From Lama guanicoe (lineage: Eukaryota): DNA of 49,422 nt. The DNA lies in assembly GCA_013239625.1 (NCBI GenBank), contig MU053156.1, positions 498,467-547,888 of the forward strand. Direction: 5' to 3'. A program made the translations under genes and the position numbers. The notes beneath the pieces were generated by a model. That model worked only from the letters and a program-made list of their open reading frames with translations, was not told the DNA's origin and did not search any database. Of the stretch, positions 1-21,756 are shown in pieces; positions within the stretch are counted from its first letter, which is position 1; every line of letters starts with the position of its first letter.

Positions 1-11
1 TGCCCTCCAAG

Positions 12-66
12 ATACATAGAAAATGCCAGGAGACACCTGAGAGACGAAGGAAGTTATCTAGCCGAG
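12..66 (+). CDS. Possible upstream exon of the MIA3-like gene (…RRHLRDEGSYLAE)
   Basis: ccctccaag acceptor and gag|gtgcac donor; only weak resemblance to the TANGO1 exon ending ...SEFSE. Confidence 0.3.
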
Positions 67-319
67 GTGCACAGCCCTTAGCCCTGTTTATGTTAAAGAG
101 AGAATTTTCCGTGTGAATTTGGGAAAACTTTATATTCCACTAGGAACACTCATTTGTGAGCTCTTTGACATGAGCAGTTTCCCACCCTTGCTTTCCGCTT
201 GTCGTCCAGCCATGTCTTCCGTTGTCCAGTGAGGAGGAAATCTGGAGGCTAGGGAATATCTGTGCCTGAATGTCTTTGTTCTACATGTCTTCGTGGGCTT
301 GACATTTGTCCTGGGCCCA

Positions 320-819
320 GCCTGGATCAGCCGCCATCACAGGAAACTTAGGGGTGGCTGTGGGTCCTGGCTGAGAAGGGGCAGGATTCCACATGGGTTG
401 AAGAGAAGCAACTGCCCATCAGAACAAACCAAGACTTGCTGGAAGAGATTGACAGGCTGGCAGTGGAAGAGGACCAGCTGAAGAAGGAAATGCAAAGCAC
501 GAAGGGTCAGAACGAGCTGCTGGGACTCCAGTGCTAGAACTTGAAGAGACCCTGTCTGCTGTGAACTCTCAAATGGAGCAGACACTGTCTTTGACCCCAC
601 ACTGAGATTCATGCGAAGTCCCAGATGCTTTGAAGCATGTGTAACGGGACGTATGACACTTGCTTTCTGTTCTTTTTAAAATGTGTGTGTTCAGAATCAT
701 TTCACTGCCTTCTAGAGAGACTGCTCACCAAAGTCTTGGGACGTGTACCAGAGCTAATATATTTATTTTCTATGGTTTGTTTTGCACTTAACACAATAAT
801 TTGTTTTTGAAAAAAAAAA
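320..819 (+). pseudogene. JAKMIP1: Processed pseudogene fragment of JAKMIP1 (short C-terminal isoform), with 3' UTR and A-tail
   Basis: 367-613 reads [52 protein letters not shown], then after frameshifts VLELE and DPVCCELSNGADTVFDPTLRFM. This matches the recalled JAKMIP1 end ([75 protein letters not shown]). No introns; A10 at 810-819. Confidence 0.8.
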
Positions 820-1110
820 GTTACACCTTTAAGCAGATCACCCTGAGTTTTCATTGAAATCTAAGTTCATGCTTTCTTTGTGTCCTGTGTGAAGATACTG
901 GAAAAAGGAACGTCTCCAGAGACCTTGAAAGACGCTATTTCAATAAACACTTCAGGAATTTCAGAGGGAAATGCCTCCAGTTGCAGCAGGATTTCCACTG
1001 TACACATGAGCTTTCACAAGGAACAACAATCTCATGTCTTAGAAGATTAAATGTTGATGTCTATTCAAGTTACTTTTCTTGGGATTTAGTCATCAATGGG
1101 AATGTTCTCT

Positions 1111-1209
1111 TTTGAAATTGCTCTTAATAAAGCTTGTGTCCACAAAGCCACAGTGATACCTGAAGAAGTGTGTGTGCAGGAGAATGTCCAGCTCAGCAGC
1201 AAGAAGAGG
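1111..1209 (+). CDS. Degenerate MIA3-like exon (FEIALNKA…QENVQLSSKKR), ancestral acceptor missing
   Basis: Resembles the TANGO1 exon VQIALNEAK...VQEENARLKKKKEQ. Donor agg|gtaaga at 1210; no AG before 1111; an in-frame alternative AG at 1178-1179. Confidence 0.5.
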
Positions 1210-1406
1210 GTAAGAAACATTCCTCACCCCAGAGATGCTTACATCAGAGAGTTGAGCGTCACTGTGTTTGTGTCTGTGCTGTAACACATATAAAGCAGAT
1301 GACCCGTCTTAGCCGTTTCCAAGTGTACGATCCTCTCGTGTTACGTACATTCACGTTGCTGGGCATCAGTGCTTCCTGAACGTCTTTTCTCACATCTGTC
1401 TTGCAG

Positions 1407-1479
1407 GCAGGCACTTTGAAGACCAGATCTGAGGGTTCTATGCAGAGAGCCATGATGACTGAAGAATGCAACCTGGAAG
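1407..1479 (+). CDS. MIA3-like exon AGTLKTRSEGSMQRAMMTEECNLE
   Basis: ttgcag acceptor, gaag|gtatg donor; ends in CNLE as the TANGO1 exon does; in-frame ATG at 1440. Confidence 0.7.
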
Positions 1480-1512
1480 GTATGTTGCTTGTTGGGAAGA
1501 AAACCTCATATG

Positions 1513-3356
1513 CAGGCTTCCTGGGAGATGTTGTGGCTTCAGTCCTAGACCCCTAGAATAAAATAAATATCATAGTAAAGAGAGTGAAATGATTTTTAAT
1601 TTGGCTTTCCAGTGCATGTAACAGTTATGTTTACGCTACATTGCAGTCTATTAAGTGAGCAATAACCACTGTGTCTACAAACCCCAATGGTCATAATTTA
1701 ATGAAAATATACTTTCTTACTAAAAACTACTATCCACCACCGGAGCCTTCAGTGAGGTGTTGTCTTTTCATTGGTGGATGGTCTGGAATTGATGTTGGTG
1801 GCTGCTGACCCATCATTGTGGCAGTTGCTGAAGATTGATGTGGCTTTTGCAACTTAACGTAAGACCACAGTGAAGTTTGTCACAGGGCAACTCTCCCTTT
1901 CAGGAAGAAGTCCTCTGTAGTAGGCAATGCTGTTTGATAGATTTTACACACAGGAGAACATCTTTCCAAATTGGAGTCAGTCCTCTCAAACCCTGCGGTG
2001 GTTTATCAGCTAAGTTCACGCACTCTTCTAAGTCCTTTGTTATTTCAACCTTATTCACAGCACCTTCACCAATAGATTCCATCTCAAGAAACCAGTTTCT
2101 TTGCTCGTCCATAAGAAGCAGCTCCTCATTCATGCACATTTTTGTCATGAGGTTGCAGCCAGTCAGTCATGTCTTCAGGCTCCACTTCTAGCTCTAGTTC
2201 TCTTGCTGTTTTCAGCACGTCTGCAGTTCCTTCCAGCACTGAGGTCTTGAGCCCCTCAAAGTCATGCATCAGGATTGGAATCAGTTCCTTCCAAAGCCTG
2301 GTTCATGTTGATATTTTCACTTTCCACGAATCATGAATGTTCTTACTGGCATCTAAAATGGTGAATGCTTTTCAGGAAGTTTTCCATTTATTTGCCCAGA
2401 CCCATTGGTGGTATCACTATCTGTGGCAGCTAAAGTCTTCCAAAATGTATTTCTTAAATAATGAGACTTAAAAGTCATAATTACTCCTGATCCGCGGGCT
2501 GCAGAATGGATGTTGTGTTAAGCATGGAAACAGCATTCATCTCATGCATCTCCATCAGAGCTCCTGGGTGACCGGTGCATTGTCCATGAGCAGTAATATT
2601 TTGAAAGAAAGGTTTTTTTGGTTTATTTTGTTTTTTCCGCTGAGCAGTAGGTCTCAACGGTGGACTAAAATACTCATGTAAATATATGTTCTGTGATCCA
2701 GGCTTTGTTCCATTTATAGAGCACAGAGTAGATTTCCCACGATTCTCACAGGACAGAGGATTTTCAGAACGTTAAATGAGCATTGGCTGTGTTAGCCCCT
2801 CACGGGAAAGTGAGCCTATCCATTGAAGCCTTGATGCCAGGTGCTGACTCCTCCTCTCCAGCTGCGACGGCACTGGGTGGCCTCCCCTTGCAGGTCTCTG
2901 CACTGAAACCCTGTTGTTCAGTGCAGCCGCCTTCATGAGCTGTCTCAGCTTCACCTCCTGGAGCACTTGCAGCAGCCTCTGGGTCAGCTCTTCCTGCCTT
3001 ACCTTGCACAGGTATGCAGTGGAGATGGAATCTTGCCTTAAACTTCATGGGCCAGCCCCTGCTGTCTTCACACTTTTCTTTTGTAGTCTCTTTCTCTCAG
3101 GGTTCATAGAATTGCTGAGAATTAGGGACTTCCGCTGGATTAGGTGCCTTAAAGTAATGTCATGCCTGTTTTATTAAAGTGATAAGGAACGAACTATTTC
3201 AGGAACTACCAAAATGTGACACAGAGATAAGAAATGAGCAAATGCTGTCAGGAAAAAATGTCACCAGTGGAATTGCTGGACTCAAGATTGTTACAAATCT
3301 TCAATATTTTTAAAAATGTGCATTACTGGGGAGGGCAATAAAATGAAACATGCCTG
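1513..3356 (-). mobile_element. Tigger1 (TcMar-Tigger) DNA transposon fossil, internally deleted
   Basis: Both ends resemble Tigger1 termini (CAGGC...; TA at 3357). Degenerate transposase peptides on - (MNEELLLMDEQRNWFLEMES...; IPVQGKAGRADPEAAAS). Confidence 0.9.
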
Positions 3357-3494
3357 TAATAGCAATGAGTTTGCACTGGGAAGGTAAAAAGTGGATTCCT
3401 GCCTTCAGGATTCTCTCCTTTCTCCACTCCCCAGCACAGCCAAGCTCTTGAGTGCACATGTGCACACACAAAGACAGTTGTTTTATGTTTATAG

Positions 3495-3630
3495 AGGGTA
3501 AGAAGAAAATGCAAGACCACCGTGCTGCATCAGGATCTCTGAAAGGAGAGGACTCCAATTTCCAAAGGAAGGTGAAGAAAGTACGCTTCCTTGATGAAAT
3601 CGGTGGACAGAGAACTATGGACACTGAAGA
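3495..3630 (+). CDS. MIA3-like exon EGKKKMQDH…GQRTMDTE
   Basis: tttatag acceptor, ga|gtaaga donor, phase 1 to 2, open frame. Confidence 0.75.
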
Positions 3631-4993
3631 GTAAGACGTTCCTGTGTTAATTGCGACAGTGTGTGAATGAGCGTGTGGAGTTACGTGGCTATTGTAACAT
3701 GTTTCAGAATGCTTACCACCATATTTCTTTACCATATTCGATCAGTACAGATTGGTGTTTGCTTTTCTGCCTTGATTTCTGTAATCTGCTGCTTCTGTTC
3801 ATTCTAACTGGTTACCAGAGTCTTGTTTGTATTTAGTTTGAGATCTTAGCAGGTTCTTGGACCAGATTTAGTCACTTCATTATCCGGATCCCCCTAGGTC
3901 CGTTTTTATCGTCCTTAGGTTTCAACCACATCAAAGTGTCATGACCTGCCATGTGTCTATCATTTTATTAAACTCTAGACATTGGGTCGAAAATAGAGAA
4001 AATTCAAGGCCTAGTGTGAGGTTAACTTGCTGCAGAGAAGGTGGGCGTTACGGCTGGCAGATGGTCAGGGCGCCAGCAGCACTGCATCCTGTTAACCCAG
4101 TTAGCAGCTGAGATCAGTCAGTGCAGCCAGCCCTCGTGAGGCCCGTGTGTCTCCTGTCCGCCGTTGTTCCTGGCACGTAGCTCTCGTGGATCCCAGCTAA
4201 GGCCTGTAGGTCTCTCTAGGGGTCGCCTTCACTGACGGGCCAGGAGCTCCAGCTGTCTGACTGCGGTGCCCGTGCGTAGGGGGCACCGGCTGCCGGGCTG
4301 CTTTGCATCTCAGTGGTTTCCTCTGCAGTTACCGGGTGACCCCCGGGGAAGGTGGACCCAGTCCTGGGCTTCCTTCTTCTCCATCTTGGCCTCATGTCCC
4401 TTCCTGGCTTGTTAGCAATTTGGTACATTCGATCATGGATTTCATAATTTGCCCAGAGTTTCCTGTCATTCTCAGGGGGAGGTCATGGACGTCACACCCA
4501 TTAACCTGCTTTCAAAAACAAACGTTTCCTTATATTTCCTAGAGATCAGGCTTTGCTCCAGGCTTTGACTGAAATCAGGGCTCTCTGTGGGAGAAATCAA
4601 ACAAGTCATGAACGCTTGCTTCACCCTAACGTATTTGGTTGTGATGACTTGGTCAGACCCTGATTCCCACGTTGAAACACAGTGAGCTCGCGCTGCCCCA
4701 GGCACAGGAGCCTGAGCGGCACAGAGCGCACCTCACGTGGGCTTTTCCTGTGCGTTTACTTTGTGCACAGATGAGTAGGGGTGGGGACGCTGAAGGGAAG
4801 CCCAGATACCAAACACTTGCCAGAGGCCCGAGTGTAATGTTTTCATATCTACTAGTGGGGGCCTTTAATTCTTTCCTCTGTATCTGCCAGTCTGAGCATT
4901 TATGGGGAAGGGCGAAAGGGGCATTGAATTCTTCCCTTCCAATTTCTGGGAGGGAAACTGGCAGAATTTCACAGAGTTTCTTTCCCCTCTCAG

Positions 4994-5092
4994 GAAGGTG
5001 GACGTGAACGGATGTGAGCTGGTGGGAAAGCAGCAGCTGTTGGCAGCAGAGGAGAAGGCAAAACTGGCTGAAGAGGAGATACGACAGTACAA
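4994..5092 (+). CDS. MIA3-like exon KVDVNG…AEEEIRQYK
   Basis: cccctctcag acceptor, aa|gtgagt donor; resembles TANGO1 ...LSAADEKAVSAAEEVKTYK. Confidence 0.85.
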
Positions 5093-5778
5093 GTGAGTTC
5101 AGCTCCTCCATACCCACGGCTCTGAAAACCCCTGTTGGATCTTTTGGAAACTTCTCTAAAATGTTTATAGACACAATATCATACACAGACCCAAACAAAA
5201 GACATTTGTATACATGCTTCACACAGAAGAAAAAGTGTTAAGTTTTACACATGTTAAGTTAAAGGTTTAACTTTAAAAAGTATTAAGTTACTAAGAATTT
5301 CCTGGTCCCCAGTGCTGGCCAGACTGAGTGGAAGGAAGGTTCACAGAGATGTTTCTGAAGGTGCTATAAACAGTTCTCACCCTGAGGACAGCAGTTTGGT
5401 GTAGCATCAGTTGCACCAATAAACATGCCCGTGCTGCTGGGGAGACCCACTTGTAAGAAGTAGGGTCAGGATGTAAGGAAAGGAGGAATCACGCTTTGTG
5501 AGAAAGATGCTCAGCACAGGACACGTGAGGGAAACGCTGAGAACAGGAGTGGGAATTGTGTCCGCGCAGGACCCGGCAGCCGTTCAGTAGCAGTGACGGG
5601 AGGAGTGGCTGCAGCGACAGCTTTGCACCCGCTGTGCTTCTGCAGCCGTGTGCAGTGTGTCTTGAGCGGTGAGATGATGAGTGTGAGTGTGCAGTGCAGA
5701 TAACGTGGACTGGGGCAGGTTACTTAACAGCATACCCAGAATTGTGTCTTCTCTGATGGAACAATTTGTAACTCATAG

Positions 5779-5839
5779 GATGAGACTTGAAGAATGTCAC
5801 GGGCAAATGCGGGAAGCAGAGATCACTTGGAGACACCAG
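5779..5839 (+). CDS. MIA3-like exon MRLEECHGQMREAEITWRHQ
   Basis: catag acceptor, cag|gtaaac donor; resembles [20 protein letters not shown]. Confidence 0.8.
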
Positions 5840-5951
5840 GTAAACTGCCTTCCTCCTGACACACCCAGTCCTTAGCACCTGATGCAGACGGTCACTGTGG
5901 CCCTGAGAACCCCTCGCCATGAGGTGTTTCTTGATGTGTTGACTTTTTCAG

Positions 5952-5987
5952 CTCGCTCTTGCTGAGAAGAAGGCCCAAGACAGCTCG
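5952..5987 (+). CDS. MIA3-like 36-nt exon LALAEKKAQDSS
   Basis: tttttcag acceptor, |gtaaga donor; resembles IATHEKKAHENW. Confidence 0.85.
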
Positions 5988-6062
5988 GTAAGAATTTGTT
6001 TCCTTCCTTCCCTTTGTGCACAGTCGGCCACAACTGAACATGGATGTGTTTTTCTCCCACAG

Positions 6063-6151
6063 CTCAGGGCTCAGGAGCTGGAGAGGGAAAACTCTGAGAT
6101 GAGAAGGGAAAGCTCTGAGCTGAAAAGGGAAGTCGCCCACCTGAAACAGAG
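6063..6151 (+). CDS. MIA3-like exon LRAQELERENSEMRRESSELKREVAHLKQR
   Basis: ctcccacag acceptor, ag|gtacag donor; resembles [23 protein letters not shown] with 7 extra residues. Confidence 0.8.
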
Positions 6152-6267
6152 GTACAGAACTTTGACACATTTTTAGGGTGTTTTGAGATTTTTAAGGACT
6201 GGTGGTTTTGTGCCTAGTAGAGGAATTGGTGGTGTAATTCGTATTGAAGCCATTCTTTATCTTTAAG

Positions 6268-6362
6268 ATTGGATGCAGTCTGCAGATGGAGGCAGGCAGA
6301 GAAATACATGAGGCAGGAGCCCACCCCAGGAGGACCACACAGGCTGTATCCTCCCCTGAGAG
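6268..6362 (+). CDS. MIA3-like exon LDAVCRW…EPTPGGPHRLYPPLR
   Basis: tctttaag acceptor, ag|gtaagg donor; resembles KPMPGKPNTQNPPRR. Confidence 0.8.
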
Positions 6363-6528
6363 GTAAGGAGCGCACGGTGAAGTGCAGCAGCTCCGTTTCT
6401 GCAGCAGGAGCCGCCCAGTGGGCTGCTTGTCCCTGTGGGTAGTTGTCGGGGTTCTTGGACACCACACCACACACTCTCACTGCAGGGAACAGGTTCACAG
6501 CTGGGTGACAAGATGCTGTTTTCTTCAC

Positions 6529-6651
6529 GTGCCACCAGCCAGCAGGGCTCTGTCCCCTGTGAGCGGTGGAGCTCACGCCCCTCCAGGGACTGCGGGCTGC
6601 CCCCCAGGCTCTTGGTTGGCTGGCATGGCTGGTTTCTGTGCGCTAGAAGAT
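6529..6651 (+). pseudogene. Decayed MIA3-like exon (ATSQQGS / SPVSGG), acceptor CAG>CAC, internal frameshift
   Basis: Resembles [22 protein letters not shown] but split across two frames; ttttcttcac where an acceptor is expected; donor-like gtgagc at 6652. Confidence 0.65.
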
Positions 6652-7352
6652 GTGAGCGTCAGCCCCCTCTTTCCCGCCTGGACACAGTGTTGAAGGCTGA
6701 ATTCTCTTCTCATTTCAGGAAAATAACATGGAAGACGTTTTAGAATGAAGGCAGTATGTCATAACGAGAAAAACATTTTTCTTTATTTGCCTTGGTGGAT
6801 AAATATTCTATTCAAGATCTGCTTTAAGGCAGCAGGCATTTCTTCACTAATTTTGCAGGTCCCTTCGTTCTTATAAAAAAGCTTGCACAGTGACCTAGAG
6901 TAGCCAGCTAGTGAGTGACATGACTGCGCAGCCTCCCTCTCCCAGAGTTAACGCGTGACTCTGAAGTGTCCCACCAGCTTCTCCGTGTAACTCACTGTTC
7001 CTTTGCTGATGATTACAACATGAGTCATTCTAAGGCCACTTCTTTCACAAATACTTACATGACATGTGGTCACTTGTACAAGACATGTCCTGTCAGACAG
7101 AAGGCTTTTAACAGTTTACCAACAGGCTGAGGAGGAAGAGGTGGAGCTCACGGCCGGGGGTTGTTGATCCTCCTCCTATGAAAGACTCTTTTTACTTTAA
7201 CGTGTAACCTGTGTACAGACTGGTTTGCCCTGAAGTGCGCTGTGAGTCCCCTGTGTCAGTGCCGGTTGCCAGGGATCTGAGCCCTGAGCCCCCATCCACG
7301 GTGATTAGCTGTGAAAACACCTGAATCAGGGCTCTGTGATGTCCTCGTCACT

Positions 7353-7396
7353 GGTCAGGGGTCCAGCCTCCCCTTGTCCTCGGGGTCACCTGAGGC
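7353..7396 (+). pseudogene. Decayed MIA3-like exon remnant (counterpart of GSVDGPLPHPRWSAEA)
   Basis: ggtcaggggtccagcctccccttgtcctcggggtcacctgaggc resembles the recalled MIA3 exon at nucleotide level; no AG at the expected position. Confidence 0.4.
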
Positions 7397-7538
7397 GTGA
7401 GGAGGCCCGCGGCCTCTGGGAAGAGCCTGGGGCGCGGGCGGGAGTGAGAGCTCTTGGGGGAGGGCACGGACGGCTCGTGCTTCCCTGCACGGCCTCTGTC
7501 AGAGAGAATCAGCCTTCAGCACTGCTCTCCCTTCACAG

Positions 7539-7609
7539 CTTCAGGGCTGGGTGGCGCCCCCATGAGGAATGGCACCTCCTTCCCGGCTCAGGAGGCAGAG
7601 GAAACCCAG
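7539..7609 (+). CDS. MIA3-like exon ASGLGGAPMRNGTSFPAQEAEETQ
   Basis: cttcacag acceptor, cag|gtaaat donor, phase 1 to 0. Confidence 0.7.
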
Positions 7610-7965
7610 GTAAATGCTTTTTTCCAGTTCTGTTCCAGTGGTCGTTTTGTGTTGAAATTATCTCTGAAACTACCATTTTCCTATCGAACAATCCTTTCCT
7701 GGCCTTGCCGACTGTTTGCATGTTGCGGGACACGTATGCCCTGTGATCACAGTGACGTGTGGCGACAGAGTCTTGTCCCCAAGGCCTCCTGCGCAGCCCG
7801 GGCCGCAGGCAGGCCCCGGGGCGGGTGGAGTGCGTGGCGCCGTGCTGCCGCCTGGGCATCCGGTGCAGGGGAGGGTGCCTGGGGCTGACCGCGGCTGCGT
7901 TGGTGTTTTGTCGGTGTTGGTCCTTTGGTCTGTCATCCAACACGCCTCTCCCTTCTGCTGCACAG

Positions 7966-8128
7966 GTCACTGTGGATGTCGGAGGGCCCTGTCCTTTTGC
8001 AGGACCAGCTCGCGTGGCTAGCCCCATGAGCCGCCCAGTGCCACCCTTCCGGGGCTGTTGGCCACCTCCACCCGGACCAGCCCCGTGGCCTGTGGGGCCT
8101 TGGCCACAGCCACCAATGTCTCCACTTG
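7966..8128 (+). CDS. MIA3-like proline-rich-domain exon VTVDVGGPCPFAGP…WPPPPGP…PPMSPL
   Basis: ctgcacag acceptor, g|gtaaga donor; resembles [35 protein letters not shown]. Confidence 0.85.
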
Positions 8129-9166
8129 GTAAGATGAGAGCATGTGCTTCTGTTCCCTTGTTGAGTCCCTGCAGAAGAAGGGGAGGTGTCACTCCGGGGC
8201 TTTGCAGTGCCCGGGGAAGCCTGGGTGGGGACATGGAGACGTTCGTCTGCTTTCTTAGCACGCACGTTTGATGGACCGTGTCGCTTCCCCACCCTGACCT
8301 GGGAAGCAGGTATCTCCTGTATAGAACGAAGGAGACGTCTAACTTTTAGTCACACCAGTTTGACAGGTGTGCCTCATGCATGGACCATGTGTCGTGTTCC
8401 GTGGGGGGTGACGCACTCCCCTCACCTCAGGGCTTTACCGTGTTCCCTCAGGGTGGGGGAGAGAGGGAGGGGGAGAGACATTCACAGCAGCCAGCTTGCC
8501 ATCAGCACACAGACGTGCCAGTGCAGGGCCCCAGGGTGCAAGAGGGTCACGTGAGCCGCAAAGGCGTGAACAGGGGAGTGTGGAGGGGAAGGAAGATACT
8601 GAGGCGTGCCCAGTGAGGATTTGTTGGGTTCACTCAGGTCGAGCTGGAAGGTCACTCCCGGCAGGGCGGGCAGTGCAGGCGGGCCATGTGAATGCAGCGT
8701 GAGGTCCGCTCAGAGCCACGTGTGTGTGCAGGGGACTCAGTGCGGCCGTGCACGTATCCCCCTCAGAACCCACTGCCTCCAGAAAACACTCAGTTCACAA
8801 CCTCATATGAAGTTCATTGTTCTCTTGGGTTTCTGAAAGCTCTGGATGTGTGTGAAAGAAAGCTCTGGATATCAGAGAAACTGAAATGTAGCTTGGCTTG
8901 TTGCAGATATTTTGTGTGGCTTTAATTTTCTTTTGCCCCAGTGATTTGAAAAGTGCAGGCAGGATTTAGATCAGCTGAGCAAGGGGCCTTACCCTTCAGC
9001 ATGAGGCAGGTCCTTTTGGGGAAGTCAGGGGTAATCAAGGGACCCCCTGCAGGACTCCTGTCCCCTTACTCCTGCTCCCTCTAGTCACCATGCCCACTGT
9101 CAGCTTGGTATCTCCTCATTTATGTCACAAGATCCAATTTCTGATTCTTTGCTTGAATTCCTGCAG

Positions 9167-9237: not shown

Positions 9238-12200
9238 CACTGGCTCCTGACGTGACTGTGAGGAGGGTCGGGTCAAGCACACGAATTACTTTCAAAATGA
9301 CTGGGACATATTTCTCACTCACCATTGTCATAGCTTAAAAGAAAGTGCGCACAGAATCGTCAGAAGATACCCTGAGAAGTACATTAAATTAAACTGAAGA
9401 TGTAAGAGCCCAGGTCCAGAGCTTACCATTCTCTGCTTTAAAGATAAGGCGAAGGGTCCCTTTCTTCTATTAAATCTCAGGTCCTACTAGTTAAAGAAGG
9501 AAATAGAATAATGAGAATGTGCACATTTTCAGATCTGTGTCTGAGATGTGAAAATTATTTTCATTATACATAGATGCGGAGATTCACATGCAGACTACAG
9601 TGTCCATCAGAGGCCATACACACATTAGAGAAGACAAAATAGGAAAAAAAATAAGATCCTATTATAATGAATAAAACTTTTTGCCTTACTTCAAACAGTT
9701 TGAAGTTTGAAGAGGACCCCGAGCTGTGGCAATGATACATTTAGAGAAGATGTCAGAGGTGCATTATTGCCTGAATGATTCCCTGCTCCACCCTGCCCCC
9801 TCTGCTGTTGTCTCTTCTATTGTCACCCTTAATAAATCTGTCACAGTTCTATGTCAGTGTCTGCGTCCTGGAGGATGAGTGGTCACACCCTCTCGAGGGC
9901 ACACAGAGTGATTCACAGACATGCAGTTCACAAGCCAGCAGAAACTAGGATGACAGGGCAGACACAAGGTCCCCCTTTGGGGCAGCAGTGACTGCACGGG
10001 GCCCAGGAGCTCCTCCTGGGGCGGTGGGCGCAGCCTATGTCTAGATCCAGTGATGGCTGTGTTTCTTCAAGTCTATAAGCACTCACTGGGCACGTGGGGC
10101 CTGTCTGTCACACGGGCGTCCGGTCATGAGCTAGATGACCAGAATGGAGTGGCCATGTCTCATGGTCAGGAACAGATGAGGTGCAGGAGGGGCCGCGGGC
10201 ATCCAGCGAGAGGGTCCCTCACTAACCAGGCCTGTACCCCCCGCCCCGTGTGGCAGCTGCCCCGGCAGCCCCAGTTCCAGGCAGACTCTGAGGGCGGCTG
10301 CGGGCAGCAGTGTTCTCAGTAAGTCCCGTGAGCGCCCTTCGTCCTCCCACAGTTCCCTTACTGTGAGCTGGGCGGGCAGGGTCAGCGGGTGGGGCACCAC
10401 TGCTGCCGAGGGGATGGTGTTGGGTATAAAAAGGGCTCCCTTCAGGCCCCCCAGTCCACTCCACGCTGCCCCTGGAGCTCGTGGGGCCCTCGCTCCTTCC
10501 AGGGGGGGGCGGCGGCCAGCCCTGCAGCAGCTCTGGGGTCCAGGCTGGGCCACCAACAGGTCAAGGTGAGACTGCGCTGCCCGGGAAGCGGGGGGAACAG
10601 CGGTGCAGCAGTATGTACCAGCAGGAGCAGCTCGGCGACCGGCTCCTCCACTGTGAGCAGGGCCGGGGCACTACTTGGCCGTGAGGGTGGGAGGGCTGGG
10701 AGAGCTGGGCCCTGTGGTCCTGGACGGGGCTAGACCAGAGCCCAGGGCCCAAGGACCTGGGGGGGAAGAGAGAAAGACATGCAGGGGGAGAGACAGTGCA
10801 TGAGTGAGAGAGAGAGGTGGGGGTCAAGTCCTAAAGAGCGACAGGAGGTGACGGGGGCACACCGGGTAGGGGGAGGCAGAGACAAGAGGAGGCAGGAAGG
10901 AGGGAGCCAGCCCAGGGTGCGTTGGGGAGGACCTAGGGCCAGGGTGACTGGGAAGGGGAGTTGGCCCATCCTTCACCAAGCCCTGCAACTGCCACTGTCA
11001 GGGCCCCAGGGACCGGCAGCCCGCCCAGCTCGACAGGCACCATCGGCCCTCAGGACGGGGCTCAGAGCTGCACCCAGGGCCCTCCAGCCACTTCCCAGGT
11101 AAGGGGGACCAGGAGGGCTCCCCCCAGCACCACAGACGTGCCAACTCTAGCTTCAGAGGCCCTGTGAGCAGGCATTGTCCCGTTCCCCATCCCACAGAAG
11201 GGAAACAGGCTCCGCCAGCCAGTGAACTTGGCTCTGTCTGCAGGGTTATTCCCTTTCCCAATGCTGCTTTCCCAGGCAGGCCTGTGCTCCTGTCCTAAGA
11301 ATGGGGCCTGTGATGAGCCCGGGGGCCTGGGTCCCACCCGACTGCCCTCTGGTGCTGGGTGACCTGGGCAAGTAATCTCCCCTCCTTGGGCCTCAACTGT
11401 ATGACCAATGGCCCTTCTCCCCACCTTTCTGGGAAGTGGGACCCCAGCAGGGCCATCGCTCCAGGCCTCCCAGGCCCCAGGGTGGGTGTGCGGTGAGCTC
11501 TGGCACTCGGGGGAGTTCCTTTACGGGTGGGGCGATGGCCCATGTGCACTTACTGTTTTTTATGGGGTCACGTCCTGCTATTTCCATCTGGAATGGGACT
11601 TACCTACCATGGAGCCTGAAACTTGGTTTTCCAGATTTTTCTAAATTGGCCCTTGTACAAAAGAGTGGCTCCCCTGGCTGGGATCGCAAACCCAGTCCTG
11701 GTGAGGAGGCCCTTCCTACTCCCCTCACCTCGCTGCTCCTGGTCACCCCCAAACTCCAGAGCCATGCCCAGCGCCTGGCATTCCCTGCTCTCCCTCCCCA
11801 TGCCAAGCCCAGCTTCTCTCCCCGCCCCAGAGGCCCCTCCTCCTGAGGGAAGTTGTGGGGCTCTTAGGGTCAGGACTTCAAGCCCTGTGTCTTGGCAGGG
11901 GATGCACCAGCTGAGTGGTGACAGGCCTGGAGGCAAGGGTGGGGCCCTGAGCCCCAAAACGGGCTGTGTAGCCTTGGTCAGGTCACAGCCTCAGCCCAGC
12001 ATCACAGCCTCACACACCCCTCCAGACCACGTGCCCGGGATGTCACTCAGCCGCACACTCAGGCTCCAGCCCTGCTCCCCACCCCCATGCAGGCACATGG
12101 AGGGCACACGTGGGACGTGTAAACACATACAGGAACACACACATGCACAGGGACACACAGGCTCACCCCTCAGCCGCCAGGATGCCAGTTTTTCATTATC

Positions 12201-14099: not shown

Positions 14100-15120
<1,021 letters not shown>

Positions 15121-19702: not shown

Positions 19703-19971
19703 ACTTGTGGAACTAGAGGTAGCACGGCAGGTCCTTCTCAATTACCAGGGGCTCCTCCATGGGACCATACCGCTTCACCACACAGCCGTTCTTGTCAATG
19801 AGAAACTTGGTGAAGTTCCATTTGATGGCATTTCCCAGGACGCCCTTCCCCTTGGGCTGAACTTTCATCCACTTCCACAGTGGGTGGGCATCGTCCCCAT
19901 TGACACAGATCTTGCTGAACAAATCGAATCTGACGTTATAGCCAGCGGCGGACTCTGATTTCAGCACTACT
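19703..19971 (-). pseudogene. GPX4: GPX4 processed fragment (C-terminal ~85 codons plus ~10 nt of 3' UTR)
   Basis: [78 protein letters not shown]; intronless; no Sec codon region, SECIS or poly-A. Confidence 0.95.
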
Positions 19972-19982
19972 GATCAATTTTA

Positions 19983-21756
19983 CAGGAGGGCGGGGCTCAC
20001 GGCTGAGCGAGGCTCAGGGTGCAGGGGTGCGGCTGAGGCGCTCTGGGCCCTCGCGGAGCCCGCGGAGGCCGAGGGGGACCCCGAAGTGCGCGACAGCAGC
20101 TGCGTCATGAAACAGGCCCAGTCCTACTTCGGTTCGGTGAACGCCTCCTACAACGCCATCGTCGACTGCGGAAACTGCTCCAGGCTCTTCCACGCGCAGA
20201 GACTGACCAACACTAACCTCTTCGTGGTGGCCGAGAAGCCACTGTGCAGCCAGTGGGAGGCTGGCCGGCTGCTGCAGAAAGAGACTCCCTCGGACGGCCC
20301 GGAGCAATGTGAACTGGTGCAGAGACCGCGATACCGCAGAGGCCCGCACATCTGCTTCGACTACAACGCCACGGGAGATGCCCCAGACTGCGGCCGCGGG
20401 GCCTCCTTCCCGCCGTCATTGGGCGTCCTGGTGTCCCTGCAGCTGCTGCTCCTACTGGGCCTGCCTCCCCGGCCGGCCGCAGCCTCAAGTCCACGCCCAC
20501 GCCTCTCGCCGCCTCTGAGTGCTCCCTCCCTGCCCAGGCCTCCCTGCCCGTCCCCTGCTCCCCCGCCCCACACTCCCCGCCTTAGAGCTTCACCCCCTCC
20601 CTCACTGAAGGACCTGAGCACGCAGGGCCCCCAAGAGTCTGCACCTGGTGGGCAGGGAGGTGGATTCCCAAAGGAGAGCGTTTCAAGTCTTTGGCCCCCA
20701 AGCCACATCTAGCGCCTGAACTGTCGAAAGTGTCCCAAGACCCCTCATTCCCACTTGACTTACTCGCCTCTCCCCCCAGGACTGGGCCAGGGAAGACACA
20801 GTACTGGTGCCAAACCAGGCCTCCACTGCCCACCCTGCCCTGAGGCTCCGTTTGTGTGGGAGGCCTAGGTCTTGCCCCAGCTGAACTCCTCTAACCTGGT
20901 TCTTCTGCCCTACCCAGGACCAAATCTGGATTCCCTGGGAATCATGGAGGAAGTTGAGATGGGCAGTTTGAGGCCTGTGCATCCCAGCTTAAGTCCTAGC
21001 AGAAGAGAGGTCCTTGGGCAGCCCTCCTGCCTCTCTCACGCCTACAGCCACCTCTCCCTCACCAAGCTCTGCAGGTTGCAGGACAGTGACTGGCTCAGAC
21101 ACAACCCCATACACATCTGGAGCCCTGAGGGCAGAAACTGGACTCACATTAAACACATCCAGGAGGACACACACAAACACAGACGTGCACACACACACAC
21201 ACACAAACACACACATACCGTGGGGTGGGGTGGGAGCTGGGGCTCACAAAGCCTTACACAGGATGAAGTGTTGGTGGGAGGGTTGGCACATGCACACTCC
21301 ATCTCCTGCTCACCATCCGCCTCTAATCTGACCTGCAGCCCAGCTGGTCCTCCGTCTCTAAAGCTGAATGTCAAACAGTGCCAAATGCTGGGGCAAGGGG
21401 TGAAGACCCCTCTGTCCCACCCTACCAGTGTCCCCTAAATGCCCTCAGTCCACCAGGTGCTCATTGTAACCATTTCTCACTACTGTCAGGCCTTCAGTGG
21501 GACCACATGCCACTGCCTGCACCCCTCGGCAGAGGAACTCTCACCGGACATTGCCCCTTGCCTTAGCGGGGTGACTTGATCACTCCTAGCTGGGTCATCC
21601 CACCCCCAGTCTGGCCCACACTCAGGCCTGTGCCCACTTCCACACACACTCCCTTGCCAAACTGCTCCTCCCTGCTGAACACAACACTTGCACACACATA
21701 AACACATATACACACTCTGCACACACACAGGCTGGGCCTGGGCTCATAAAAAAAAA
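19983..21756 (+). pseudogene. CACNA2D2: CACNA2D2 retrocopy (delta-2 C-terminus, 3' UTR, A-tail), 5'-truncated
   Basis: [54 protein letters not shown]...[18 protein letters not shown], a frameshift, then [12 protein letters not shown] (stop 20516-20518); intronless coding part; A-run at 21748-21756. Confidence 0.93.

What the first reader, a model, noticed from the sequence alone, without database searches (positions are those of the whole stretch)
1407..8128. Fast-evolving, intron-bearing TANGO1/MIA3 paralog with an intact spliced frame
Seen: nine exons with canonical sites and matching phases give ~274 stop-free codons (263 from ATG 1440), invisible in the ORF track. Similarity to recalled TANGO1 is low but collinear, so this is a DNA-level duplicate, not a retrocopy like primate CTAGE genes and not the conserved MIA3 ortholog. 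Established: the TANGO1 coiled coils bind cTAGE5 and tethers, and its PPP motifs bind Sec23. Inference: a lineage-specific ER-exit-site modulator, soluble if translated from ATG 1440.
Basis: partly seen in the sequence, partly recalled or inferred. Interest (0 to 1): 0.75.

Follow-up and report, generated by a model that had tools for sequence, protein, structure and literature searches.

The report
Camelid mini-TANGO1 gene family member
The window holds the last nine coding exons of an intact, fast-evolving camelid gene that arose as an intron-keeping partial copy of the ER-export gene MIA3/TANGO1 and now exists in ten or more copies per genome.

Summary
Nine + strand exons (1407-8128), all AG/GT, splice into 823 nt with 274 stop-free codons. 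The peptide is 271/274 identical to residues 240-513 of an annotated 514-aa alpaca "uncharacterized protein".

The gene starts about 25 kb upstream of the window. Sixteen exons give 512 open codons and include a membrane-anchor exon, so "soluble" is probably wrong.

All 14 comparable exons keep the phase of their counterparts in this genome's true MIA3, which lies on another contig; six keep the exact length. It is therefore a DNA-level partial duplicate of the TANGO1-Short part of MIA3, lacking MIA3 exons E6-E10 and E18-E19.

At least ten paralogous loci exist. Of nine compared, five are open, three are broken and one is rearranged. Amino-acid change runs near the neutral rate (ML/YN00 dN/dS 0.73-1.24), yet stops and frameshifts are missing far more often than neutrality predicts.

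Camelid copies form one clade, inside a wider clade of short TANGO1-like proteins of other mammals, nested in mammalian TANGO1.

Expression could not be tested. An ER-exit-site role is inferred.

The parts
895..966 (+). Vestigial exon, counterpart of MIA3 exon E6 (72 nt). It is open in frame, but GG follows it where a GT donor should be. It is absent from the alpaca protein P0005 and used as an exon in paralog model P0027.
   Evidence: tblastn of P0027 residues against the locus, 79% identity over 24 aa; sequence. MIA3 E6 is 72 nt.
1407..1479 (+). Exon w1, 73 nt, phase 0. Counterpart of MIA3 E11 (91 nt). Contains the ATG at 1440.
3495..3630 (+). Exon w2, 136 nt, phase 1. Counterpart of MIA3 E12 (139 nt).
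4994..5092 (+). Exon w3, 99 nt, phase 2. Counterpart of MIA3 E13 (102 nt). It lies at the start of the confidently predicted part of the long helix.
5779..5839 (+). Exon w4, 61 nt, phase 2. Same length as MIA3 E14.
5952..5987 (+). Exon w5, 36 nt, phase 0. Same length as MIA3 E15.
5988..6062 (+). Intron 5, 75 nt, open in frame. It is the best-conserved segment among the paralogs (84-100% nt identity). Some NCBI models read it through as coding.
6063..6151 (+). Exon w6, 89 nt, phase 0. Equals MIA3 E16 (68 nt) plus one extra 21-nt repeat unit; the repeat number varies among paralogs.
6268..6362 (+). Exon w7, 95 nt, phase 2. Counterpart of MIA3 E17 (101 nt). End of the long helix.
7539..7609 (+). 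Exon w8, 71 nt, phase 1. Counterpart of MIA3 E20 (80 nt). Start of the disordered tail.
7966..8128 (+). Exon w9, 163 nt, phase 0. Counterpart of MIA3 E21 (151 nt). Proline-rich, with the only PPPP run of the protein.
9334..9338 (+). Candidate only: an acceptor followed by letters that would complete Ala-stop, as the alpaca protein ends. The terminal exon is not established.
   Evidence: pattern scan; a second candidate is at 14223-14227

Best explanation
The window carries exons 8-16 of an intact 16-exon gene of about 33 kb (contig C243:473637-506594). The gene belongs to a multi-copy camelid family.

Origin (shown). The family began as a genomic, intron-retaining duplicate of the TANGO1-Short portion of MIA3. 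It kept the transmembrane exon, a 22-nt micro-exon, the first three exons of coiled coil 1, the whole CC2-equivalent block and two proline-rich exons. It lost MIA3 exons E6-E10 and E18-E19, both in-frame losses. It gained new 5' exons, one of which is a collagen-XII-like FN3 fragment.

Product (shown or predicted). The predicted protein is a single-pass membrane protein with a shortened helical rod. A continuous helix spans residues 284-418 and is encoded by window exons w2-w7. A short disordered Pro-rich tail carries one PPPP motif.

Evolution (shown). Copies spread by segmental duplication to ten or more loci. Amino acids are replaced at about the neutral rate, but reading frame, splice sites and freedom from stops are maintained in most copies.

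Mechanism (inferred). The protein sits in the ER membrane like TANGO1-Short. It would join TANGO1/cTAGE5 assemblies through the CC2-equivalent helix and touch Sec23 through its PPP motif. With only part of CC1 and one PPP motif, it is more likely a modulator or competitor of ER exit sites than a full export receptor. Its expression is possibly tissue-restricted.
For: Gene structure:
- Spliced frame of 274 codons.
- Full gene of 16 exons, all AG/GT, 512 codons, 0 stops.
- 271 of 274 residues identical to alpaca P0005.

Descent from MIA3:
- The true MIA3 lies on C8876.
- Exon table: 14 of 14 paired exons have the same phase. Six have the same length (132, 22, 89, 111, 61, 36 nt). The rest differ by multiples of 3.
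- The micro-exon is found in both genes.
- Peptide identity to own MIA3 is 36.8% over 250 aa.

Duplication at DNA level:
- Paralogous loci match across introns at 72-93% identity.
- Splice sites are kept in most copies.

Selection for an open frame:
- P(no stop | neutral) is 0.075, 0.0097, 0.005, 0.0045 and 0.026 for five copies.
- Intron indels occur at 5.5-11.9 per kb, and only 17 of 117 are multiples of 3.
- All 11 exon-length differences in the five open copies are multiples of 3.

Phylogeny: 26 short proteins form one clade (SH-aLRT 100) attached among mammalian TANGO1 rows; the 11 camelid rows form one clade (100).

Architecture: AlphaFold2 gives helix 109-140 (membrane anchor), helix 150-233, helix 284-418 (pLDDT 92-97 over about 320-410), and a disordered tail. 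There is one P-run of 3 or more, against 7 in TANGO1-Short P0040.

Domain roles (CC1 recruits tethers, CC2 binds family members, PRD binds Sec23/Sec16) come from passages of the review PMC11034787.
Against:
- dN/dS is near 1 with methods that model transition bias (YN00 0.78-1.24, ML 0.73-1.02).
- Substitutions are spread evenly over codon positions, for example 44/44/42.
- Exon divergence is about equal to intron divergence (0.090 against 0.067; 0.179 against 0.178).
- Three of nine paralogs compared carry stops or frameshifts and one is rearranged.
- Gene conversion among copies could keep frames open without selection on every copy.
- The open-frame tests all use the window copy as reference, so they are not independent.
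- The part of CC1 lost and the single PPP motif may mean that TANGO1-like interactions are gone.
- No named MIA2 sequence was in hand for a direct comparison.
- The terminal exon is not defined.
Confidence: 0.65

Rival explanations
1. A neutrally decaying duplicate. The copy is a young-looking pseudogene, or a merely transcribed relic, whose frame happens to be still open or is kept open by gene conversion from other copies.
For: - dN/dS is 0.73-1.24 by ML and YN00.
- Substitutions are spread evenly over codon positions.
- Exon divergence is about equal to intron divergence.
- Three of nine paralogs have stops or frameshifts.
- A vestigial exon with a lost donor lies in the window at 895-966.
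- No RNA evidence was obtained.
Against: - 512 codons over 16 exons have no stop, and all 32 splice dinucleotides are canonical.
- Five paralogs at 9-24% nucleotide divergence have no stop (per-copy P 0.0045-0.075).
- The same five have only in-frame length changes, while 100 of 117 intron indels would shift the frame.
- The alpaca counterpart is 98.9% identical over the window part.
Confidence: 0.15
2. A real protein that has left the ER-export role. It would be a fast-evolving membrane or coiled-coil scaffold with a new function, for example in the germ line or in a genetic conflict, comparable to primate NPIP/morpheus.
For: - Near-neutral or diversifying protein evolution with a maintained frame.
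- Loss of about 156 codons of CC1 and 69 codons of the linker.
- One PPP motif against seven.
- Mosaic gene with a collagen-XII FN3 fragment and a JAKMIP-like fragment.
- The Pfam NPIP profile hits the same TM-coiled-coil module in relatives.
- The NPIP preprint notes similarity to MIA3 and testis expression in macaque (passages only).
Against: - The retained parts are those that the review assigns to membrane anchoring, family binding (CC2) and Sec23 binding.
- No data on localisation or partners point either way.
Confidence: 0.2
3. The main product is the soluble 263-residue protein from the ATG at 1440, made from an internal promoter.
For: NCBI models of two paralogs start at the homologous methionine (P0002 of C. 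bactrianus, P0017 of C. dromedarius).
Against: - The upstream exons, including the membrane anchor, are intact, in frame and canonically spliced in this genome.
- They are part of the alpaca model P0005.
- Such short models are often incomplete predictions.
Confidence: 0.1
4. The family descends from MIA2/cTAGE5 rather than from MIA3.
For: - NCBI names two members 'melanoma inhibitory activity protein 2-like'.
- The nearest ESM Atlas clusters carry MIA2-type automatic names.
Against: - Exon lengths and phases match MIA3 of the same genome.
- Named best outside hits are TANGO1 homologs of guinea pig and a fish.
- The family attaches among mammalian TANGO1 rows, far from the fish rows.
- No MIA2-like exon reached E 1e-5 when TANGO1-Short was searched against the genome, whereas the family's TM exon did.
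Confidence: 0.03

Closest known systems
TANGO1-Short (short isoform of MIA3, 785 aa)
   Same: - Membrane anchor, then cytosolic coiled coils, then a Pro-rich tail, with no lumenal SH3 domain.
- Same exon phases in 14 of 14 exons.
- 36.8% identity, collinear.
   Different: - About 512 aa.
- Lacks MIA3 exons E6-E10 (468 nt, the later part of CC1) and E18-E19 (207 nt).
- One PPP run against seven.
- New 5' exons.
- Ten or more copies.
- Near-neutral protein evolution.
cTAGE5 (short isoform of MIA2) and TALI
   Same: Same family architecture and the ER-exit-site role described in the review PMC11034787 (passages).
   Different: These are an old paralog of TANGO1. The camelid family attaches inside mammalian TANGO1. 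No named MIA2 sequence was compared directly.
Primate CTAGE genes (retrocopies of cTAGE5; recalled, and see earlier finding e1-615874)
   Same: A lineage-specific multi-copy offshoot of the TANGO1/MIA family.
   Different: Those are intronless retrocopies of MIA2. This family keeps its introns (8 within the window part) and comes from MIA3 by segmental duplication.
NPIP / morpheus (Pfam PF06409), primate core-duplicon family
   Same: - Spread by segmental duplication and very fast protein evolution (passages).
- The Pfam NPIP profile matches the TM-coiled-coil module of 17 of 25 short-family rows and 10 of 14 TANGO1 rows at E up to 1.
   Different: - The window's protein counterpart P0005 scores 10.1 bits against a cut-off of 27.5.
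- No NPIP sequence was available for a tree, so kinship closer than 'both TANGO1-like' is untested.
Short TANGO1-like proteins of other mammals (370-560 aa; e.g. Ursus arctos LOC113270720, P0166)
   Same: - One clade with the camelid family (SH-aLRT 100).
- 30-39% identity.
- Same shortened architecture.
   Different: Camelid copies form their own clade and carry their own 5' mosaic exons.

Membership tests
TANGO1/MIA3-derived genes | Collinear sequence similarity to MIA3 | tested here: met
   92 of 250 aligned residues are identical to the MIA3 product of the same genome, in order. The named outside hits are TANGO1 homologs.
TANGO1/MIA3-derived genes | Intron positions and phases shared with MIA3 (a DNA-level copy) | tested here: met
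   14 of 14 paired exons have the same phase, 6 have the same length, and the others differ by multiples of 3. The 22-nt micro-exon is present in both genes.
TANGO1/MIA3-derived genes | Membrane anchor directly before coiled coil 1 | tested here: met
   TM exon at C243:495375-495506, outside the window and in frame. The most hydrophobic 19-residue window starts at residue 114. Helix 109-140 has block-mean pLDDT 80-91 over residues 111-140.
TANGO1/MIA3-derived genes | Two cytosolic coiled coils (CC1 recruits tethers, CC2 binds family members) | tested here: inconclusive
   Helices 150-233 and 284-418 are predicted. The exons for the later part of CC1 are missing. Binding was not testable.
TANGO1/MIA3-derived genes | C-terminal proline-rich domain with PPP motifs that bind Sec23 | tested here: inconclusive
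   One PPPP run at residue 492 (exon w9), against 7 runs in P0040. The tail is predicted disordered. Binding was not tested.
TANGO1-Long / TALI | Lumenal SH3-like cargo domain | tested here: not met
   P0005 has no Pfam family at E up to 0.01. SH3_2 was found in 6 of 14 TANGO1 rows.
MIA3 ortholog | The conserved single-copy locus | tested here: not met
   MIA3 lies on contig C8876:14694737-14713108, with 69-88% identity per exon to P0040. The window lies on C243.
CTAGE-type retrocopies | Intronless processed copy | tested here: not met
   Eight introns lie between the nine window exons. Paralogs align across the introns.
NPIP (Pfam PF06409) | Score over Pfam's gathering cut-off (27.5 bits) | tested here: not met
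   P0005 scores 10.1 bits. 0 of 9 camelid rows match at E up to 1e-4. 8 of 15 non-camelid short rows and 4 of 11 TANGO1 rows are over the cut-off.
ER-exit-site machinery | Localisation at ER exit sites and binding to cTAGE5, TANGO1 and Sec23A | not testable with these tools
   No experiment was possible.

The most novel reading that the evidence does not exclude
An old placental offshoot of MIA3, a 'mini-TANGO1' with membrane anchor, shortened rod and short Pro-rich tail, may be a recurrent core-duplicon gene. It would expand by segmental duplication and change its protein at or above the neutral rate while keeping its frame. The camelid burst (ten or more mosaic copies carrying collagen-XII and JAKMIP fragments) would then be a parallel to the primate NPIP/morpheus burst, and NPIP may be the primate branch of the same lineage.
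Probability: 0.25. Interest if true: 0.8.

Novelty: new variant of a known kind. Interest (0 to 1): 0.5.

Why it matters
Known offshoots of the TANGO1 family are the old paralog MIA2/cTAGE5 and the primate CTAGE retrocopies. Here a different route is seen: a partial genomic copy of MIA3 itself, cut down to anchor, part of CC1, CC2 and a minimal Pro-rich tail, multiplied in camelids and present in other mammals.

If the proteins are made, they are natural deletion variants. They show which TANGO1 parts can be lost while selection still keeps the frame, and they may tune or compete with ER-exit-site assembly in particular tissues.

The pattern of an open frame with nearly free amino-acid change is the signature of conflict-driven or germ-line gene families. 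The Pfam link to NPIP raises a testable origin for that unexplained primate family.

Six full-text searches found no paper describing the family.

Tried and rejected
- Pfam and PDB sequence searches with single exon translations gave only generic sub-threshold coiled-coil hits.
- RNA evidence. The look-up of sequencing runs listed 24 runs, 4 on record as RNA; two transcriptome runs labelled 'reproductive system metagenome' held a share of 0.10 of the words. These runs were never laid and are no evidence of expression or tissue.
- Complex prediction of the CC2-equivalent (P0005 264-425) with TANGO1-Short CC2 (P0040 368-525) scored 0.52 against 0.45 for a control. Verdict: no answer. It is not evidence either way.
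- The search of earlier findings near the place and by sequence gave nothing.
- The α2δ calcium-channel match at 19942-20712 first looked like a neighbouring gene's last exon. It is an intronless fragment.
- An intronless 428-aa open frame on C55225, similar to TANGO1 coiled coils, was looked at as a possible MIA2 proxy and left unresolved.
- NG86 dN/dS (0.45-0.79) was not taken at face value, because methods that model transition bias give 0.73-1.24.
- The terminal exon could not be fixed. Two pattern candidates are at 9334 and 14223.


Full report
**1. The observation**

I read 1-9000 and spliced the nine proposed exons in a script. After correcting four boundaries by one base, the exons are 1407-1479, 3495-3630, 4994-5092, 5779-5839, 5952-5987, 6063-6151, 6268-6362, 7539-7609 and 7966-8128. 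Every one has an AG acceptor and a GT donor. Their sum is 823 nt and gives 274 codons without a stop, or 263 from the ATG at 1440. The largest stop-to-stop frame around any exon is 171 aa. Exon 6 holds a 21-nt tandem repeat at 6084-6131.

**2. What the peptide is**

Single-exon translations gave nothing specific in Pfam or the PDB. A stretch that reads through the 75-nt intron 5, which is itself open in frame, was searched against longer proteins. It found 19 proteins at E up to 0.01 among 80 candidates, and all 19 are from camelids (Vicugna pacos, Camelus dromedarius, C. bactrianus, C. ferus). [quoted passage not shown]

The spliced window peptide is 271/274 identical to residues 240-513 of the 514-aa alpaca protein P0005, and 66-85% identical to the other 18. 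The window therefore comes from an alpaca-like camelid, and the gene is already a predicted, unnamed RefSeq model.

**3. The whole gene**

The window's own assembly is held (2.05 Gb), and the window is C243:498467-547888. Upstream on the same strand lie seven more exons that match P0005:

| Exon | Position on C243 | Length (nt) | Note |
|---|---|---|---|
| Ea | 473637-473776 | 140 | new 5' exon |
| Eb | 475589-475730 | 142 | new 5' exon |
| TM | 495375-495506 | 132 | membrane anchor |
| micro-exon | 496865-496886 | 22 | |
| Ed | 497430-497518 | 89 | |
| Ee | 497944-498018 | 75 | |
| Ef | 498109-498219 | 111 | |

With the nine window exons they give 512 codons without a stop, and all sites are AG/GT. 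An alternative first exon at C243:491456 also joins the TM exon in frame. It resembles the N-termini of paralog model P0009.

Residues of about 59-103 of P0005 match collagen alpha-1(XII) at 59-62%. A dromedary paralog model carries a Pfam fn3 hit (E 7.2e-6). So the 5' end is a mosaic.

The AlphaFold2 model of P0005, built on 25 aligned sequences (mean pLDDT 62), shows:
- a disordered N-terminus (1-91);
- helix 109-140, the anchor;
- helix 150-233;
- one long helix 284-418, with pLDDT 92-97 over about 320-410, which is window exons w3-w7;
- a disordered tail.

The tail has a single PPPP run (residue 492, exon w9), against seven P-runs of 3 or more in TANGO1-Short P0040.

**4. Descent from MIA3 at DNA level**

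Searching the genome with P0040 located the true MIA3 on C8876:14694737-14713108. P0040 is 785 aa, the length the review PMC11034787 gives for TANGO1-Short (passages). I mapped the MIA3 exons and compared the two genes.

| Gene | Exon lengths in order (nt) |
|---|---|
| MIA3 | TM 132, micro 22, then 89, 78, 111, 72, 105, 123, 112, 56, 91, 139, 102, 61, 36, 68, 101, 138, 69, 80, 151 |
| Window gene | TM 132, micro 22, then 89, 75, 111, then 73, 136, 99, 61, 36, 89, 95, then 71, 163 |

- All 14 paired exons have the same phase.
- Six have the same length, and the others differ by multiples of three.
- Exon nucleotide identity is 61-77%.
- MIA3 exons E6-E10 (468 nt) and E18-E19 (207 nt) have no used counterpart.
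- A 72-nt relic of E6 lies in the window at 895-966, open in frame but followed by GG instead of GT.

The window peptide is 36.8% identical (92/250) and collinear with the genome's MIA3 product.

MIA2 as parent is unlikely, for four reasons:
- The named outside hits are TANGO1 homologs: guinea pig at 8.3e-35 and Labeo rohita at 7.4e-10.
- The ten long or mid-length representatives I fetched, chosen as possible MIA2 candidates, all looked TANGO1-like by eye.
- In a tree of 40 rows the short proteins attach among mammalian TANGO1 rows, far from the fish rows. The rows were picked by hand from the proteins fetched: 11 camelid, 15 other short, 14 TANGO1-like. Method: quick IQ-TREE with SH-aLRT.
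- No MIA2-like exon reached E 1e-5 when TANGO1-Short was searched against the genome.

No named MIA2 sequence was available, so this was not tested directly.

**5. The family**

A DNA search with window 4900-8200 found 46 matches. Loci on C811, C8676, C6062, C1934, C3553, C9102, C7680, C525, C1330, C2302 and C5276, plus small contigs, align across the introns at 72-93%. The protein search gave 80 exon matches, including ten TM-exon matches outside MIA3, none with a stop.

I fetched 20 stretches and mapped the exons in nine loci. C5276 and C2302 showed one exon each and were left out.

| Locus | State of the exons found (unless noted) |
|---|---|
| C811 | no stop or frameshift |
| C8676 | no stop or frameshift in exons 1-8, but the exon-8 donor is not GT |
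| C1934 | no stop or frameshift, exons 1-8 |
| C3553 | no stop or frameshift, exons 2-8 |
| C9102 | no stop or frameshift; exon 3 absent, an in-frame loss also seen in alpaca model P0181 |
| C525 | a deletion joins exons 7 and 8 |
| C6062 | stops, a +7 shift and three lost donors |
| C7680 | shifts of -1 and -20 |
| C1330 | a stop in exon 6 |

A 'near-length' protein search with P0005 residues 97-513 returned 25 proteins at E up to 1e-5, all camelid, from contigs of many different sizes.

In the tree, the 11 camelid rows form one clade (100). Together with 15 short proteins (272-562 aa) of other mammals they form a clade of 26 (100). One of the 15 carries the same stretch as a brown-bear protein named by NCBI. 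So the paralog lineage is older than camelids, and the many copies are a camelid expansion. Both camels and alpaca have members in several sub-clades.

**6. Selection**

Against the window copy, the five open paralogs differ as follows:

| Measure | Range |
|---|---|
| Exon nucleotide difference | 9.0-23.7% |
| Intron nucleotide difference | 6.7-20.7% |
| dN/dS, NG86 | 0.50-0.79 |
| dN/dS, LWL85 | 0.63-0.94 |
| dN/dS, YN00 | 0.78-1.24 |
| dN/dS, ML | 0.73-1.02 |

Substitutions are spread almost evenly over codon positions, for example 40/31/41, 44/44/42 and 31/32/31. Amino-acid replacement therefore runs at about the neutral rate.

The frame, however, is kept:
- Random substitution of the window CDS at the observed distances leaves no stop in only 7.5%, 0.97%, 0.5%, 0.45% and 2.6% of 20000 trials.
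- Introns carry 5.5-11.9 indels per kb, and only 17 of 117 are multiples of three. By my arithmetic, that predicts about three to six frame-shifting indels per copy over about 500-650 nt of exon.
- All 11 exon-length differences in exons 1-8 of the five open copies are multiples of three. Several are shared, and the ±21 changes are repeat-unit changes, so these are fewer than 11 events.

These tests share the window copy as reference and ignore gene conversion. They show selection or conversion for open frames in the family, not for each copy.

**7. Mechanism**

The following domain roles come from passages of the review PMC11034787:
- TANGO1-Short is anchored in the ER membrane.
- CC1 recruits the NRZ tether and ERGIC membranes.
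- CC2 binds cTAGE5, TALI and TANGO1-Short.
- The PRD binds Sec23 and Sec16.

The camelid gene keeps the anchor, the first three CC1 exons, all seven exons of the CC2 block (window w1-w7) and two PRD exons with one PPPP. My placing of CC1 and CC2 on the exons rests partly on recalled residue numbers.

I infer a membrane-anchored mini-TANGO1 that can enter TANGO1/cTAGE5 assemblies and touch Sec23. It would act as a modulator or competitor rather than a full receptor. Nothing here shows localisation, binding or expression.

**8. Literature**

Six full-text searches found no description of this family:
- TANGO1 + camel;
- MIA3 / gene family expansion / alpaca;
- TANGO1 / cTAGE / paralog / duplication / testis;
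- 'transport and Golgi organization' + camelid names;
- MIA3 / TANGO1 / lineage-specific and related terms;
- NPIP + MIA3.

I saw only listings, except for passages of PMC11034787 and of the preprint 10.1101/116087. The preprint reports 16-27% similarity of NPIP to MIA3, testis-biased expression in macaque and very fast evolution.

The Pfam NPIP profile matches the TM-coiled-coil module as follows:
- 17 of 25 short-family rows and 10 of 14 TANGO1 rows at E up to 1;
- 8 of 15 non-camelid short rows, 4 of 11 TANGO1 rows and 0 of 9 camelid rows over its cut-off.

This ties NPIP to the TANGO1 module in general. Whether NPIP belongs to the short lineage is open.

**9. Verdict**

This is a real, intact, already predicted but undescribed gene: a cut-down, intron-bearing MIA3 duplicate of a multi-copy, fast-evolving camelid family. 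Identity and origin are well shown. Coding function is likely. The ER-exit-site role is inferred, and expression is untested.

Noticed in passing
window 5988-6062 (intron 5): This 75-nt intron is better conserved among paralogs (84-100% nt identity in 8 of 8 comparisons) than the exons on either side (72-91%) and, in all 7 comparisons where intron 3 could be aligned, than the long intron 3 (78-94%). It is open in frame in 5 of 9 copies. NCBI models P0001 and P0002, and P0044 of another mammal, read it through as coding. It could be a splicing-control element for the 36-nt exon, or a retained-intron isoform.
   Followed up: partly
window 19942-20712 (+), match at about 20044-20394: An open frame matches the C-terminal end of Pfam VGCC_alpha2 (E 1.9e-41, profile positions 312-431) in one uninterrupted piece. 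In the two intron-bearing α2δ loci that the search found in this genome, those positions are split over three or more exons. It is thus an intronless fragment of a calcium-channel α2δ gene, probably a processed copy.
   Followed up: partly
window 469-619 (+): Within the intron before exon w1 lies a coiled-coil-like stretch with an in-frame stop. It corresponds to a part of dromedary paralog models P0023 and P0177 that hits Pfam JAKMIP_CC3 (E 6e-7, just under the cut-off). It is a fragment of another gene caught in the duplicated unit.
   Followed up: partly
contig C243:473637-475730, upstream of the window (loci L031, L001, L003): Two 5' exons of the gene are not from MIA3. One matches an FN3 repeat of collagen alpha-1(XII) at about 60% identity. 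Exons like them occur at many other loci of the genome, most of them with stops.
   Followed up: partly
L053 (contig C55225:11227500-11236500), minus strand, 1372-2658: An intronless 428-aa open frame is 33-37% identical to TANGO1-Short coiled coils. It may be an old retrocopy of a TANGO1-family gene.
   Followed up: no
Pfam PF06409 (NPIP) against proteins P0032-P0171: The NPIP profile scores over its cut-off on true TANGO1 orthologs that have SH3 domains (for example P0056, 44.1 bits). The primate NPIP domain is thus homologous to the TANGO1 membrane-anchor and CC1 module.
   Followed up: partly
window 6084-6131 and the paralog exon 6: The 21-nt (7-residue) repeat in exon 6 varies among copies, from the single-unit 68-nt form up to a 152-nt exon. 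The helical rod therefore differs in length by whole heptads.
   Followed up: partly
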